DNA of 64,000 nt, from IMG/VR virus record IMGVR_UViG_3300025626_000004. One strand, 5' to 3'. The translations under genes and the position numbers were made by a program. This document shows positions 54,671-59,802 of the stretch, piece by piece. The number at the start of each line of letters is the position of its first letter. The first letter of the stretch is position 1. Source of the DNA: a virus. The notes under the pieces were generated by a model. The model did no database searches, was not told the origin of the DNA, and was given only the letters and a program-made list of their open reading frames with translations.

Positions 54671-55051
54671 ATGAAAAATTTTGTTGCCACTTCTGTCGCA
54701 CTTCTTCTAACAACTACTGCTGTATCTGCGGCTGATCTTGGCATGGGCTTTTCGGCTGGTGGTGAAATCGTTTCTGAATACACATATGACGCAGAAAACA
54801 TGAACGTTACACTTACCCCTGAGGTTGGTTATACACTCGCTCTTGGTAGAGACATTGATTTTACAATGTCTACTGACTTAGAACTATATGATGATGAATT
54901 CGTAGCAAACAATGCATTTGATGATATTATTTTGGATCTTGAAGCATCAATGATGTTGATGAACTCTTTAGAAGCATACGCCAAAACATCGTATGATATT
55001 GAAGACGGTACTCGTGGAGAAATTTCTATGGGCCTAAGCTTCTCATTCTAA
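54671..55051 (+). CDS. secreted small outer-membrane beta-barrel-like protein
   Basis: Signal peptide (..AVSA/AD), alternating beta pattern, C-terminal GLSFSF. Confidence 0.65.
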   Translation: MKNFVATSVALLLTTTAVSAADLGMGFSAGGEIVSEYTYDAENMNVTLTPEVGYTLALGRDIDFTMSTDLELYDDEFVANNAFDDIILDLEASMMLMNSLEAYAKTSYDIEDGTRGEISMGLSFSF

Positions 55052-55137: not shown

Positions 55138-56073
55138 ATGAATTATTTTGAATTAACACCTGAAGAAAACACGTTTACTAATATTGTGGTAGATCTAACC
55201 CACAGGTGTAATATGGAATGTGCTAACTGCTATATTCCAAACAGGGATGTGCCTGACTTAGATAAAGATCGATTATATGATTTTTTATCGAGACTTCCAG
55301 AAAGAACATATATTCGTTTAATTGGTGCAGAACCAACTATGCGCACAGACTTACCAGAAATTATTACTAAAGTAAAAGAACTTGGCCATAGACCTAGCGT
55401 CACGACGAACGGATTAAAGCTTGCTAATAGATCATATGTTAAGAAGCTAAAGGATTCAGGGCTTCGCCTATTGCTTCACAGTATGAATGGCGCTGATAAT
55501 AATGCAACCTATAAAGAACTTGACAATGGTAATTGGGCTACTGTTAAGGTTAGAGCATTAGATAATATATTTGCTGAACGATTACCCATTAATACTGGTA
55601 CAATCATTGCTAAAGGCGTCAATGAGCATACGCTAGGTAGACAGATAGAGCTATTTGCCGAAAGAGCTATAGCAAATGGTATCAACTTCGATACAACAAC
55701 TCCGTACAATAGAATAACTCCGGTTCTTAGGATGAAATCCGTTGGAGCCATTGGTCGGTACATGGAGAATTCTTCTTACGATATGGATGAATTAATTGAT
55801 CTGTGTATAAGTCAACTTGGCGTTAATAGATCTGATATGTCTCAAACATCTGCCGGAGTAGTGAAGGCTGGACCACAATCGGGTGAAGCTTTAACTTCAT
55901 ATATGTTTAAATATAAATCAAAGGCCGGCACAATCCTTATTCGACTGATCGATTGGCAGACTGATGACGATGGAGTTATTGACCACGACAATCCGAATCG
56001 TGGAAGACTTACTGAAGATTTTACTATTGCACCATTTTTTGAGCACGTTAAAAAACATGAATACGGTTATTAG
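55138..56073 (+). CDS. radical SAM enzyme
   Basis: CNMECANC (CxxxCxxC), GAEPT, TTNG. Confidence 0.9.
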   Translation: MNYFELTPEENTFTNIVVDLTHRCNMECANCYIPNRDVPDLDKDRLYDFLSRLPERTYIRLIGAEPTMRTDLPEIITKVKELGHRPSVTTNGLKLANRSYVKKLKDSGLRLLLHSMNGADNNATYKELDNGNWATVKVRALDNIFAERLPINTGTIIAKGVNEHTLGRQIELFAERAIANGINFDTTTPYNRITPVLRMKSVGAIGRYMENSSYDMDELIDLCISQLGVNRSDMSQTSAGVVKAGPQSGEALTSYMFKYKSKAGTILIRLIDWQTDDDGVIDHDNPNRGRLTEDFTIAPFFEHVKKHEYGY

Positions 56074-56578
56074 AACTGATCCAAAATTTAGTACTGCATT
56101 AGATGCCGTTAAACAGATGGTATCAAAAATACCTGACGGTAGACTAAAACAAAACTATGGATATAAAAATTTACATACTGAAGACTGGGTTGCAATTTCT
56201 TTGTTCGAAAATGGATTTTCTTCTATTTCATATCGTTCAATATGGGAAAACAATTGTCGAATTCTTAATAGATTTTACAAAACGCCTGATGCACGATTTG
56301 AAAATGAAAAAAGAAAAGTATCTCAAACCACTTTAGATATGATTCAACAACAATTAGATATAGCCAAGATACTAGATTTTGATTGCGCCTTTATGAGTCG
56401 CGAAACTAAGACTCAGGCCTTTCTTCATTATAAGAAATTCTTGCCACAAAGTTGGCACGTAACAGACGATAAATACATTGCATGGAGAAGCGATGGTTTG
56501 TCAGTTTATCAACATCTCATGTGGACTCCGCTAAACAGTAACGAATTTATTATGGAGAAAGAAATATGCATGTCGTAA
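56057..56578 (+). CDS. hypothetical protein, GNAT-like fold suspected
   Basis: RILNRFY..P..R, QQLDIAK..DFDCAFMSRE. Confidence 0.5.
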   Translation: MNTVIRTDPKFSTALDAVKQMVSKIPDGRLKQNYGYKNLHTEDWVAISLFENGFSSISYRSIWENNCRILNRFYKTPDARFENEKRKVSQTTLDMIQQQLDIAKILDFDCAFMSRETKTQAFLHYKKFLPQSWHVTDDKYIAWRSDGLSVYQHLMWTPLNSNEFIMEKEICMS

Positions 56579-57426
56579 ATAATATTGATGAAGTCAATGC
56601 TTCTAGTATTAGACAGCTTGTTGGCGAGCATCGTACGGTTGTCATAAAAAATAAAAATCCGGTTTCACCAGAAAAGCTTATTGCCTTTTATAAAGAACTT
56701 GGTAATGTAGTAAAACAAAATGATAAGGTTACCGGAACTATAGCAACCGGTGAGTTGGTTAGAGTAAGGCAGAATGGATTATTTGCTGGCAAAGATGATG
56801 GTGAGCTTGAGTGGCATAGCGCTGGTATGAATAGAACCGGCCATGATGATATTGTGGCAATGTATATGAATCAGCCTGCAGAATCTGGCGGAGACACCCA
56901 CTTTACTGATCATCAAAGTGCCTGGCAAGATTTAGATGACGAGACAAAAGATCTTTGCCGCAAATTAAAATCTAAAGTAGTGACATATAATGCTACAATG
57001 AAATTAGAAAAAATGCATTACAAAAATGTATTTAGTGATGAGCAAACTATGATGGAGTTTCGCGACATTGATGGAAAGACAAGTTTTGAAAAACAGACCC
57101 CACGTAAGGACCTTGTAACAAAGCATCCTATCAATGGAAAAGAAGGGCTGTACTTTCCTTGGAGTGTAATCCGAGGATTTACCGGATTAGATCATAAAGA
57201 ACAACACGATTTATACTATATGTTAAAATCACATACTTTACAATATACTTCTACACATACGTGGGATGCATATGATATTGTACTAAGTGACCAACATCAT
57301 AGTTTACATAAGAGGGATGCATATGTTGGAGACCGTGAATTATGGAGAGCTGGAATCTGCCTACGACCTAAGGCAGAGTTTGTTGAAGAATGGACTTGTG
57401 AAAGTCTCATGTCCGAAGCCTCTTAA
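56566..57426 (+). CDS. TauD/TfdA-family Fe(II)/2OG enzyme with HxA motif
   Basis: LEWHSAG, GGDTHFTD, LVTKHPING, WDAYDIVLSD, SLHKR, RELWR. Confidence 0.85.
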   Translation: MHVVNNIDEVNASSIRQLVGEHRTVVIKNKNPVSPEKLIAFYKELGNVVKQNDKVTGTIATGELVRVRQNGLFAGKDDGELEWHSAGMNRTGHDDIVAMYMNQPAESGGDTHFTDHQSAWQDLDDETKDLCRKLKSKVVTYNATMKLEKMHYKNVFSDEQTMMEFRDIDGKTSFEKQTPRKDLVTKHPINGKEGLYFPWSVIRGFTGLDHKEQHDLYYMLKSHTLQYTSTHTWDAYDIVLSDQHHSLHKRDAYVGDRELWRAGICLRPKAEFVEEWTCESLMSEAS

Positions 57427-58021
57427 CTTAGAACAGTTTGAAGCAATTACTAAAAGTCTTGGTAAACCCTTGGTTACTGACAAACATGTTTTAAACGAAG
57501 GTCGAACAGTTCAAGAGTTAAGTGATGTTGGTTTGTTTGGTGATGGCGAAGTAGATTGGCATCATGATTGGAGTTATGGTAGAGGCAATTACTTTGGAAC
57601 TATACTTTATAATGTGAACAATGCTCAGAGATCTCCTACATGGTTCTGTGATATGTCTAAGGCACCAGATTCTCTTAGATATATGTATCAAGACGCCGAA
57701 GGAGAATACTATCCTCCTACACATTTACATGGACAATGTTTTACAGAAAAGCAATTGCGGATTCTTAACAAGCAAAAGATAACGCGTAAATTTAATATAG
57801 AACACCATATTACTGGTGAAAAGATTCTGTATTGCAGCCTAGCAACTATGCGAAACAACGAATATAATGTTGAGCCTATACGAGAGTGGATTGAAGAAAA
57901 CTCTTACATCCATCATTGGGAAGATAATGATATATTGTTATGGGACAACTTAAAGATGATCCATAAGCGCTCGGCCTTTGAAGGAAAAAGATTATTATGG
58001 AGAACACAATTTCTAATATAG
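57323..58021 (+). CDS. TauD/TfdA-family Fe(II)/2OG dioxygenase (canonical HxD); start codon uncertain
   Basis: DWHHD, TWFCD, HHITGEK, WEDNDILLWDN, IHKR, RLLWR. Confidence 0.85.
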   Translation: MLETVNYGELESAYDLRQSLLKNGLVKVSCPKPLNLEQFEAITKSLGKPLVTDKHVLNEGRTVQELSDVGLFGDGEVDWHHDWSYGRGNYFGTILYNVNNAQRSPTWFCDMSKAPDSLRYMYQDAEGEYYPPTHLHGQCFTEKQLRILNKQKITRKFNIEHHITGEKILYCSLATMRNNEYNVEPIREWIEENSYIHHWEDNDILLWDNLKMIHKRSAFEGKRLLWRTQFLI

Positions 58022-58446
58022 CAGTAATCAGTTTTCCAAGAACAGCTTCTAAAGCACTAGTTGATTATATGGCAAAAGAACATAGTAAGCTACCTGCGCA
58101 CGGTGTTCTACATAAGCCTGAGTATTTAGGAAAGAATGATTACAATGTAAAAGATATTGTGTTTGGGCAAAATCATATATTACACGGGCATTGGCATAGC
58201 TTAAACCAACTAGATTCAGAAATATACGATTTTGTAAAAGAAAACTATACTATTGTGTGCTCTCACCGACAGAAGCATTTAGTTAAAAAGTCTTTGTTGC
58301 AAATAACCGGTAAGGATTTATACGATGATGTTTACAAACGGTCAATGGAAGAGTATTCAAAATGGAAAATATCTGCTCATTACGTTATGTCAGGAAATGA
58401 CGCTCACATAATTCCTGAGCCTGATCCCACGAGTATTCTGGTTTAA
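57997..58446 (+). CDS. sulfotransferase-like (P-loop) small protein
   Basis: N-terminal ISFPRTASK resembles the 5'-PSB loop PRTGS. Confidence 0.45.
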   Translation: MENTISNIAVISFPRTASKALVDYMAKEHSKLPAHGVLHKPEYLGKNDYNVKDIVFGQNHILHGHWHSLNQLDSEIYDFVKENYTIVCSHRQKHLVKKSLLQITGKDLYDDVYKRSMEEYSKWKISAHYVMSGNDAHIIPEPDPTSILV

Positions 58447-58966
58447 ATCTCCAAGACAACATAAGCCTCAGATCGGCACTTTCATTTTCTACACTGTGTG
58501 GATATTCATTCCTAAACAGTACAGCAGTATCATCAAATACGTATTCGAACTTACGCTCCAATTGATCCTTATCGATGATTTGGCGTGTTCCTAATTTTTC
58601 ATGGTGAATATATTTAATTTCACGCTCATCAGGAAAATCCCAAAATACAGTTTTGGTTTGTGGCGTACAATTTTTTACAGGTATATTGATACTAACATTA
58701 TATGTGTTATCGAGTTTTGTACCAGCACCATCAGCATGAATATTAATTTGCTTTCCTGGGAATAAGCTTAAGATTAAAACCACATCTTTTAGATGTTCTG
58801 TAATAGATCCAAAGTGTCCTATTAAATGAGGGGTGGCATCTACGTTATTGTGCCACTGCTTAGTTTTCTCAAGTGCTTTATAATCTAGATTAGCATTTTT
58901 TATAAACTCTTCACATTTTGCCTTGCTATAGTTAAGATGTTTTAATTCTCTTATGTATTTCATCAA
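58385..58966 (-). CDS. cupin/2OG-Fe(II) oxygenase-like protein
   Basis: IHAD, SINIP, PHSVEN, RLMLSW. Confidence 0.65.
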   Translation of the reverse strand: MMKYIRELKHLNYSKAKCEEFIKNANLDYKALEKTKQWHNNVDATPHLIGHFGSITEHLKDVVLILSLFPGKQINIHADGAGTKLDNTYNVSINIPVKNCTPQTKTVFWDFPDEREIKYIHHEKLGTRQIIDKDQLERKFEYVFDDTAVLFRNEYPHSVENESADLRLMLSWRFKPEYSWDQAQELCERHFLT

Positions 58967-59423
58967 TAGTCTCCGTATAAGATAAGCTCAACACAACTCT
59001 ATTAAATGGGCTAAATTCATTATTCACTCTATGTGGAATGTCAACCCTCCAGCATTTAGCTGACACCAAATCTATGCTATCAACTACATTATATCGGCCA
59101 GGCTCGCCCTCCATGTATTGGAATGTAGAAGTTGGATGGACTGCCAGCGGAATATTAATTGCTGTAATTCTTTGACGAACTCCGTTTGCTTCTGCCTTAT
59201 CATCCACATGTGTTTTACATATTGTGTTAGCTGGTACCATAATCACTGCAGCATATGAAGGCACTGGTAGGTCTTTCCATATATATGAAATCCTATTCAT
59301 CTCTTCTTCATTTAATTTGTATGGTCTAATTGTCCATGCCGGTTCTGAGATATTATTGCCAATGTCAATTAACCATTTTTTATCGTCTTCTCGTACCGAA
59401 GTATCAACGTCAAAGTATTTCAT
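58932..59423 (-). CDS. cupin/2OG-Fe(II) oxygenase-like protein
   Basis: THVD, AINIP, PHRVNN, RVVLSL. Confidence 0.65.
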   Translation of the reverse strand: MKYFDVDTSVREDDKKWLIDIGNNISEPAWTIRPYKLNEEEMNRISYIWKDLPVPSYAAVIMVPANTICKTHVDDKAEANGVRQRITAINIPLAVHPTSTFQYMEGEPGRYNVVDSIDLVSAKCWRVDIPHRVNNEFSPFNRVVLSLSYTETIDEIHKRIKTS

Positions 59424-59802
59424 TAGTCTTTCCTACAATATGATATCTGAATAAATCCATAGTGCCATTCAAAGCGCTGTGCGATTTAGTGGTATCTACA
59501 TAATGAGCCCATCCCTTTTCCATGTAAAACGCATGATCTTCTAAGATAAACAGGCATCTTTTATCAGTAATAATAGGAAAATGGATACGCGGAGTTTGGT
59601 CTGTGTGTACTGTATAACAAGTCTTTGGGCTTAGGCACATTATTCGACTAGAATACATCTGGTATTTTTCAAACAAAGAATTTGTATATGGTATGTTATA
59701 AACAGGATCTATACTTTTTTGCAAAAGCACATGCTTGTCTACATTCATATATTCCTGTACCTCATCGAGTATTAGTGAGGCGTTTAATCTTCCCAGTCTC
59801 AT
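59410..59802 (-). CDS. aspartyl/asparaginyl beta-hydroxylase-like protein
   Basis: RIMCL.PKTCY.VHTD, RIHFPI.T, VDTTKSHSALN, RYHIV. Confidence 0.7.
   Translation of the reverse strand: MRLGRLNASLILDEVQEYMNVDKHVLLQKSIDPVYNIPYTNSLFEKYQMYSSRIMCLSPKTCYTVHTDQTPRIHFPIITDKRCLFILEDHAFYMEKGWAHYVDTTKSHSALNGTMDLFRYHIVGKTNEIL

What the first reader, a model, noticed from the sequence alone, without database searches (positions are those of the whole stretch)
56566..57426. TauD-fold Fe/2OG enzyme with an HxA halogenase-type facial triad
Seen: the metal motif reads W-H-S-A (codons 56815..56823) where TauD enzymes have H-x-D. The distal His and 2OG-binding Arg (SLHKR...RELWR) are retained. The next gene is a paralogue with the canonical WHHD. 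Known: replacing the carboxylate with Ala/Gly opens a halide site in SyrB2/WelO5/BesD-type radical halogenases. Inference: a marine phage may encode a halogenase-hydroxylase pair acting on a shared substrate (small molecule, nucleotide or virion protein).
Basis: partly seen in the sequence, partly recalled or inferred. Interest (0 to 1): 0.8.

Follow-up and report, generated by a model that had tools for sequence, protein, structure and literature searches.

The report
Phage TauD enzyme lacking iron-binding Asp
A marine T4-like phage carries an iron and 2-oxoglutarate enzyme that has stably lost one of its three iron-holding residues, as chlorinating enzymes do, so it may be a viral halogenase, but this is roughly a 40% bet and is untested.

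Summary
Gene 56566..57426 encodes a 286-aa TauD/TfdA-family Fe(II)/2OG enzyme that reads W83-H84-S85-A86 where the family has HxD. The distal His (H248), the 2OG Thr (T111), the 2OG Arg (R257) and the substrate Arg (R261) are all kept.

The Ala is not a private mutation. It defines a well-supported clade of marine-phage proteins (37-100% identity; A in 19 of 22 representatives, plus S, C and E).

In 18 of 18 close IMG/VR loci the gene sits in a fixed module: radical SAM, GNAT-like, TauD(HxA), TauD(HxD), often followed by a sulfotransferase-like gene.

Three results weaken the halogenase reading:
- The surrounding phage TauD radiation mostly carries HxN at this position (63 of 113 representatives), with frequent D/N swaps.
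- One pair of proteins 72% identical to each other differs by A versus D at this site.
- AspH shows that a two-His Fe/2OG site can be a plain hydroxylase.

No known halogenase is among the sequence or structure neighbours. I could not read model coordinates, so an alternative carboxylate ligand is not excluded.

Verdict: a real, conserved two-His TauD variant. Radical halogenation is the single most likely chemistry (about 0.4) but is unproven. This scan has already flagged the same family on other DNA (e1-5835285, which called it "about an even bet").

The parts
55138..56073 (+). Radical SAM enzyme (311 aa, C24-x3-C28-x2-C31), first gene of the conserved module
   Evidence: Pfam PF04055 E 1.7e-14. 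The best NCBIfam core matches are TrsS, tetraether lipid synthase Tes and MoaA, all far below their cut-offs. It lies upstream of the HxA gene in L001, L005, L006, L007 and L008 and in 18 IMG/VR loci.
56057..56578 (+). GNAT-like protein (173 aa from ATG 56057; the ORF is open from 55964)
   Evidence: No Pfam, PHROG or NCBIfam hit. The AF2 model has pLDDT 81. All top Foldseek hits are GNAT acetyltransferases, with E about 3e-5 and TM about 0.5. Its position is conserved.
56566..57426 (+). TauD/TfdA-fold Fe(II)/2OG enzyme with a two-His (HxA) iron site, the gene of the finding
   Evidence: PF02668 99.8 bits. AF2 pLDDT 90.3. VIA Z 23-25 to PlaO1, TauD, AtsK, RdpA/AAD and Rv0097/ScoE. 79 homologues found.
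56815..56823 (+). H84-S85-A86 in place of HxD
   Evidence: Sequence. Alignment to TfdA-type WHSD. The column is A in 19 of 22 clade representatives. The codon is GCT in nine loci.
57307..57348 (+). Distal His H248 (57307-09), 2OG-binding R257 (57334-36) and substrate-anion R261 (57346-48)
   Evidence: All three are invariant. They align to TauD H255, R266 and R270 and to the TfdA-type His and Arg.
57323..58021 (+). Second TauD-family gene with the canonical triad. It overlaps the end of gene 1 by 104 nt in another frame.
   Evidence: PF02668 E 5e-16. WH[HN]D is invariant in five orthologues. It follows the HxA gene in 18 of 18 close IMG/VR loci.
57560..57568 (+). H-H-D motif of gene 2
   Evidence: Sequence and alignment A4/A6.
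57997..58446 (+). Small (149 aa) sulfotransferase-like protein; a weak assignment
   Evidence: ISFPRTASKAL aligns with the VHIPKNGGTNF motif of the L006/L007 counterparts, whose products carry a faint Sulfotransfer_2 hit. No significant family hit of its own. Present in 10 of 18 IMG/VR modules.

Best explanation
Gene 1 encodes an active Fe(II)/2-oxoglutarate enzyme of the TauD/TfdA fold. Its iron is held by only two protein ligands, H84 and H248. The carboxylate position is a conserved Ala, which leaves one coordination site open. The single most likely use of that site is to bind chloride or bromide. 2OG decarboxylation would then form a halo-ferryl species, which abstracts a hydrogen from an aliphatic carbon and returns the halogen, as in SyrB2, WelO5 and BesD. 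The substrate is unknown. By homology to TauD N95 and R270, the conserved E80 and R261 suggest a small molecule with a cationic and an anionic group. The enzyme works inside a conserved phage module (radical SAM, GNAT-like, HxA-TauD, HxD-TauD, sulfotransferase-like). There the canonical paralogue probably hydroxylates or further processes the same scaffold. Shown: the fold, the conserved loss of Asp, the retention of the other catalytic residues, and the conserved module. Inferred: halide binding, halogen transfer, the nature of the substrate, and cooperation with gene 2.
For: HxA sits at the Asp position. Ala is kept through a 99%-supported clade reaching down to 37% identity, on a long stem branch of 0.62. 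H84, T111, H248, R257 and R261 are invariant, which argues for an active enzyme. Eleven positions besides A86 are conserved only in this clade (Y42, Q51, F73, N89, M99, M101, Q177, T185, H245, Y253, W260), consistent with a functional shift. The confident model is a full TauD barrel. The module is conserved in 18 of 18 close viral loci. All holders are marine or seawater metagenomes, that is, a chloride-rich habitat. From established knowledge, characterised Fe/2OG enzymes with Ala or Gly at this position are halogenases, apart from the AspH family.
Against: The enclosing radiation mostly carries HxN here, with repeated D/N swaps between close relatives. Loss of the carboxylate in these phage enzymes is therefore not in general about halide binding. 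L038 (HxA) and L039 (HxD) are 72% identical, and the clade also holds E, S and C at this column, so the position may be tolerant. HxN-type enzymes lie next to the same gene-2 type in other modules (L008, L043, L044). AspH has the same first sphere, keeps a water at this site, hydroxylates and does not halogenate (PMC13168262). No halogenase appears among 34 PDB sequence matches or the top 50 structural neighbours. The acidic residue at position 94 is universal in the clade, and its distance to the iron could not be measured.
Confidence: 0.4

Rival explanations
1. It is a two-His hydroxylase or oxidase of the AspH type. A water, or the substrate's own anionic group, fills the site left by the Asp, and the enzyme carries out ordinary oxygen-transfer chemistry within the same module.
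For: AspH is a precedent: two His, a water at the carboxylate site, hydroxylation and no halogenation even with pseudohalides. Carboxylate loss is common in this radiation (N 63, D 20, A 22 of 113) with easy D/N and A/D exchange. HxN-type relatives occupy the equivalent place beside gene-2 orthologues. All nearest structures are hydroxylases, sulfatases or isonitrile synthases.
Against: Ala is far more strictly kept than a merely tolerant site would predict (19 of 22 representatives; all near homologues). The clade has a long stem and its own conserved residues. AspH belongs to a different Pfam family, PF05118, which gene 1 does not match.
Confidence: 0.37
2. The canonical triad is restored by another protein residue. 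A nearby Asp, Glu or His (D94/D95 of GHDD, E80, E82 or H245) ligates the iron, so the enzyme is an ordinary dioxygenase with a shifted ligand.
For: An acidic residue at position 94 is present throughout the HxA clade and in the DPEE subgroup of HxN relatives. H245 is invariant in the clade.
Against: By alignment D94 corresponds to TauD P109 at the start of the next strand, beside the R270-equivalent and not beside the iron (a topological inference, not a measurement). E82 varies (E, D, V, F, P, S). E80 is also present in the HxD paralogue. H245 also occurs in some HxN and HxD relatives.
Confidence: 0.1
3. It is a non-catalytic or regulatory partner that forms a heteromer with the canonical gene-2 enzyme.
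For: The adjacency is strict and the reading frames overlap (104 nt here, 13 nt in L001). By general knowledge, not checked here, TauD-family enzymes are oligomers.
Against: All other iron and 2OG residues are invariant over deep divergence, which a dead subunit would not need. Some loci separate the two genes (L005, L017, L024, L025) or carry two HxA copies (L008, L034).
Confidence: 0.08
4. It is a sequencing error or a private mutation of an ordinary taurine dioxygenase.
For: GCT (Ala) is one base away from GAT (Asp). Public annotation calls the identical protein a taurine dioxygenase.
Against: The identical protein is on 77 contigs. Ala is present in about 80 homologues and in nine independently assembled loci.
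Confidence: 0.01

Closest known systems
TauD/TfdA-family Fe(II)/2OG dioxygenases (PF02668): E. coli TauD, AtsK, RdpA/AAD-1/AAD-2, PlaO1, ScoE/Rv0097
   Same: Same Pfam family and fold (99.8 bits; Z 23-25, rmsd 2.2-3.0 over 217-242 residues). The proximal His, the distal His, the Thr and Arg that bind 2OG, and the second Arg that binds the substrate anion in TauD are all shared.
   Different: The Asp of HxD is Ala, conserved across a clade. Sequence identity is only 16-20%. The gene is encoded by marine T4-like phages in a radical SAM/GNAT module rather than a sulfur-scavenging operon.
Fe(II)/2OG radical halogenases (SyrB2/CytC3 HxA; WelO5, BesD, AdeV HxG)
   Same: Two-His first sphere with Ala at the carboxylate position; intact 2OG site; a free-standing enzyme next to other tailoring enzymes.
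   Different: No detectable specific homology: none appears among the PDB sequence matches or the top 50 structural neighbours. As far as I know and could find in the literature, no halogenase has been described in the TauD/TfdA family or in a virus. Viral halogenases described so far are flavin-dependent (VirX1, cited in PMC10452541). Halide binding is untested.
AspH-type two-His hydroxylases (PF05118)
   Same: An Fe/2OG enzyme that lacks the carboxylate ligand but still hydroxylates (PMC13168262, PMC6817910).
   Different: A different Pfam family and different substrates (EGF domains). Gene 1 does not match PF05118. The PF05118-like genes nearby on the minus strand keep HxD.
HxN TauD-like proteins of marine myoviruses, for example Pelagibacter phage Mosig Mosig_00075
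   Same: Same phage TauD radiation and the same kind of island (FA desaturase, Asp_Arg_Hydrox, N-acetyltransferase, MoaA-like radical SAM).
   Different: They carry Asn, which could still ligate iron and leaves no room for a halide. Identity to gene 1 is 28%. They are uncharacterised.

Membership tests
TauD/TfdA family (PF02668) | Match to the family HMM above the gathering score | tested here: met
   99.8 bits against a cut-off of 27, covering residues 5-262.
TauD/TfdA family (PF02668) | Double-stranded beta-helix fold of TauD type | tested here: met
   AF2 pLDDT 90.3. VIA Z 24.8 to PlaO1 and P. putida TauD, and Z 23.7 to TauD 1os7.
TauD/TfdA family (PF02668) | HxD/E...H two-His-one-carboxylate facial triad | tested here: not met
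   H84 and H248 are present, but the carboxylate position is A86.
TauD/TfdA family (PF02668) | 2OG-binding Thr and Arg | tested here: met
   T111 aligns with TauD T126 and R257 with R266; both are invariant.
Fe(II)/2OG radical halogenases | Carboxylate ligand replaced by Ala or Gly and conserved among orthologues | tested here: met
   A in 19 of 22 clade representatives and in all near homologues. Exceptions are S, C, E and one D.
Fe(II)/2OG radical halogenases | Specific homology to a characterised halogenase lineage | tested here: inconclusive
   No halogenase appears among 34 PDB sequence matches or among the 50 listed structural neighbours. Absence from a list does not exclude a relationship.
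Fe(II)/2OG radical halogenases | No other protein ligand fills the vacated site, and a halide binds there | not testable with these tools
Fe(II)/2OG radical halogenases | Halide-dependent C-H halogenation | not testable with these tools
   Needs biochemistry.
AspH-type two-His hydroxylases (PF05118) | Match to the Asp_Arg_Hydrox family | tested here: not met
   Gene 1 hits only PF02668.

The most novel reading that the evidence does not exclude
This clade is the first Fe(II)/2OG radical halogenase lineage in the TauD/TfdA family and the first in viruses. It is widespread in marine T4-like phages, and together with a radical SAM enzyme, a GNAT, a canonical TauD hydroxylase and a sulfotransferase-like protein it makes a halogenated small molecule or lipid during infection. 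The natural HxA/HxD pair at 72% identity (L038/L039) would then be a ready-made halogenase/hydroxylase switch.
Probability: 0.35. Interest if true: 0.85.

Novelty: new variant of a known kind. Interest (0 to 1): 0.62.

Why it matters
If it halogenates, this would add an independent evolutionary origin of radical halogenation in a very well-studied scaffold (TauD). It would be the first iron-type viral halogenase and would link abundant ocean phages to organohalogen formation. It would also supply a compact free-standing enzyme with natural Ala/Asp/Asn variants for studying what decides halogenation versus hydroxylation. If it does not halogenate, the family, together with its many HxN relatives, is still a large natural set of Fe/2OG enzymes working without the canonical carboxylate. 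That would widen the AspH exception to a second fold family. Either way, the public name "taurine dioxygenase" is probably wrong for these proteins.

Tried and rejected
- Megablast of the module against 50,697 phage records found nothing. tblastn found only Pelagibacter phage Mosig at 28% identity.
- PHROGs gave only marginal hits.
- The ESM Atlas search for the GNAT-like protein gave nothing above 0.79.
- The script box holds no model coordinates. Distances from the iron site to D94, D95, E80, E82 and H245 could not be measured, and only topology-based reasoning is offered.
- Contexts of deep HxA relatives (P0086, P0089, P0160) lie on short contigs and added little.
- RNA-library contigs from two metatranscriptome studies match pieces of the module at 99% or more (X17, X18, X20). 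These are contigs, and DNA carry-over cannot be excluded, so they do not prove transcription. Uncovered parts mean nothing.
- Literature searches for a phage or TauD-family Fe/2OG halogenase, or for an HxN triad, found no such report.
- The C-terminal tail of gene 1 (EW[TS]CESL) was considered as a ligand supplied from the tail and rejected. Many clade members end before it, and the model is disordered there.

Full report
**Setting.** The window is part of a T4-like marine myovirus. It encodes a gp20 portal, gp23 capsid protein, tail sheath, large terminase, UvsW, gp46-like protein, family-B polymerase and gp41 helicase. Its capsid protein is 60-69% identical to those of Phage C48C1, Methylophilales phage Melnitz, Pelagibacter phages Mosig and HTVC008M, and Synechococcus myoviruses. 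The host is unknown. The 3.3-kb module is held at 70-100% of sampled words by marine and seawater metagenomes from 11 coded studies.

**Observation.**
- ORF 56566..57426 (+) encodes 286 aa. The codons TGG CAT AGC GCT at 56812-56823 give W83-H84-S85-A86.
- The protein matches Pfam TauD (PF02668) at 99.8 bits, E 3.3e-28.
- A profile of the family aligned to the TfdA-type enzyme AAD-2 (5bke) puts H84 on the His and A86 on the Asp of WHSD.
- Against E. coli TauD, H248 aligns with H255, T111 with T126, R257 with R266 (the 2OG C5 carboxylate binder) and R261 with R270 (the sulfonate binder).
- The AlphaFold2 model is confident (pLDDT 90.3; only the last ~17 residues are disordered). It superposes on PlaO1, TauD, AtsK, RdpA/AAD and Rv0097/ScoE with Z 23-25.
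- The next gene (ATG 57323 to 58021) is also PF02668 and reads W-H-H-D at 57557-57568. It is only 24% identical to gene 1 and sits in a separate all-Asp branch of the tree.

**Is the Ala real and conserved?**
- The identical protein is recorded on 77 contigs. 79 homologues of 37-100% identity were found.
- In the alignment H84, T111, H248, R250, R257 and R261 are invariant, and A86 is at least 90% conserved.
- Nine independently assembled loci all use GCT at this codon, while the flanking His and Ser/Asn/Cys codons vary synonymously or conservatively.
- This rules out a sequencing error or a private mutation.

**Wider family.** A profile search of 1.84 billion representatives gave 2,468 hits at E 1e-3 or better.
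- Reading the Asp column in 134 full-length representatives gave N 63, D 39, A 22, E 3, H 3, G 2, C 1 and S 1.
- In a FastTree phylogeny, gene 1 lies in a 22-representative clade with 99% local support and a stem of 0.62. That clade reads A 19, S 1, C 1, E 1.
- The clade is nested in a 113-representative clade, also 99% supported, in which the same column is mostly Asn. D and N swap between close relatives, for example P0113/P0114, P0189/P0221 and P0146/P0195.
- The TauD-like gene of the cultured Pelagibacter phage Mosig reads WHSN.
- At least two further HxA lineages exist (P0095/P0160/P0183; L045/L046), along with isolated HxG proteins.
- Inside the HxA clade, two IMG/VR proteins that are 72% identical differ by A (L038, WHNA) versus D (L039, WHND).
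- Eleven positions other than A86 are conserved in the HxA clade but not in the N or D groups: Y42, Q51, F73, N89, M99, M101, Q177, T185, H245, Y253 and W260.

**Context.**
- Five metagenomic loci down to 45% identity, and 18 of 18 IMG/VR loci of the near clade, share the same gene order: radical SAM, then a ~175-208-aa protein, then HxA-TauD, then HxD-TauD. In four of the IMG/VR loci (L017, L024, L025, L033) and in L005, roughly a gene's length separates the two TauD genes. In L008 the gene after the HxA gene is a second HxA copy, and the gene-2 orthologue lies upstream of the radical SAM gene. A small sulfotransferase-like gene follows in 10 of the 18.
- The middle protein has no family hit but folds (pLDDT 81) like GNAT acetyltransferases.
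- The radical SAM core is closest to TrsS, the lipid-linking enzyme Tes and MoaA. All are far below their family cut-offs.
- Some loci add a carbamoyltransferase, nucleotidyltransferase, HAD hydrolase, B12-radical SAM, FA desaturase, Asp decarboxylase, ATP-grasp or PhyH genes.
- In L008, L043 and L044 an HxN-type TauD lies directly beside a gene-2 orthologue.
- Gene 1 overlaps gene 2 by 104 nt here and by 13 nt in L001.
- Short contigs from metatranscriptome libraries of two studies match parts of the module at 99% or more. This is compatible with transcription but does not prove it.

**Interpretation.**
- The invariant iron and 2OG residues argue that gene 1 is a working Fe/2OG enzyme with a two-His site.
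- Apart from the AspH family, characterised enzymes with Ala or Gly at this position are radical halogenases, which have arisen several times. This statement rests on established knowledge.
- The strict retention of Ala, the long stem, the clade-specific residues and the chloride-rich habitat fit that reading.
- Four points count against it. The surrounding radiation has largely given up the carboxylate for Asn, which leaves no halide site. A/D and D/N exchanges happen at high identity. HxN enzymes take the equivalent place in sister modules. AspH shows that a two-His site can keep a water and simply hydroxylate, even refusing pseudohalides (PMC13168262; also PMC6817910 and PMC10947486).
- None of the sequence or structure neighbours is a halogenase. 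I found no report of a TauD-family or viral Fe/2OG halogenase. Known viral halogenases are flavin enzymes.

- By alignment D94 and D95 correspond to TauD P109 and A110, at the start of the strand that pairs with the R270-bearing strand. By topology they should sit near R261 and the substrate rather than on the iron.
- This is an inference.
- An acidic residue at position 94 is universal in the clade, so the possibility stays open at about 0.1.

**Odds.**

| Reading | Probability |
|---|---|
| Radical halogenase | about 0.40 |
| AspH-type two-His oxygenase (water or substrate anion at the open site) | about 0.37 |
| Relocated protein ligand | about 0.10 |
| Non-catalytic partner of gene 2 | about 0.08 |
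| Artefact | about 0.01 |

**Earlier notes in this scan.** The scan has noted the same family on other genomes. One follow-up (e1-5835285) reached essentially the same verdict, "about an even bet". My tests were run independently here and agree. They add the quantified module conservation, the 72%-identical A/D pair, the clade-specific positions and the GNAT fold.

Noticed in passing
L011:5791-6600 (Pelagibacter phage Mosig, Mosig_00075) and many representatives P0094-P0223: A large group of phage TauD-like proteins carries H-x-N instead of H-x-D (63 of 134 representatives), with frequent D/N swaps between close relatives. I found no description of an Asn-type triad in Fe/2OG enzymes.
   Followed up: partly
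L038:4938-5834 and L039:1677-2570: Two IMG/VR proteins that are 72% identical differ at the carboxylate position: WHNA versus WHND. They form a natural test pair.
   Followed up: partly
window 57323-57426: Gene 1 and gene 2 overlap by 104 nt in different frames. The overlapped C-terminal tail of gene 1 (EW[TS]CESL) is conserved in many homologues but absent in others, and it is disordered in the model.
   Followed up: partly
L008:3690-11599: A related phage locus packs four TauD genes (HxN, HxD, HxA, HxA) together with aspartate decarboxylase, FA desaturase, radical SAM, GNAT-like, ATP-grasp and PhyH genes. It looks like a larger tailoring pathway.
   Followed up: no
window 58385-59802 (minus strand): Three small cupin genes, one with a significant Asp_Arg_Hydrox (PF05118) match. 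By eye they keep HxD (HAD, HVD, HTD). Similar genes accompany the module in L005, L006 and Mosig. With the FA-desaturase neighbours, this hints at lipid or LPS modification like LpxO/OlsC; the idea is untested.
   Followed up: no
window 54671-55051: A 126-aa ORF directly upstream of the module begins with a signal-peptide-like stretch (MKNFVATSVALLLTTTAVSAADL).
   Followed up: no
window 55944-58393: Short contigs from metatranscriptomic libraries of two studies match module genes at 99% identity or more. DNA carry-over is not excluded.
   Followed up: partly
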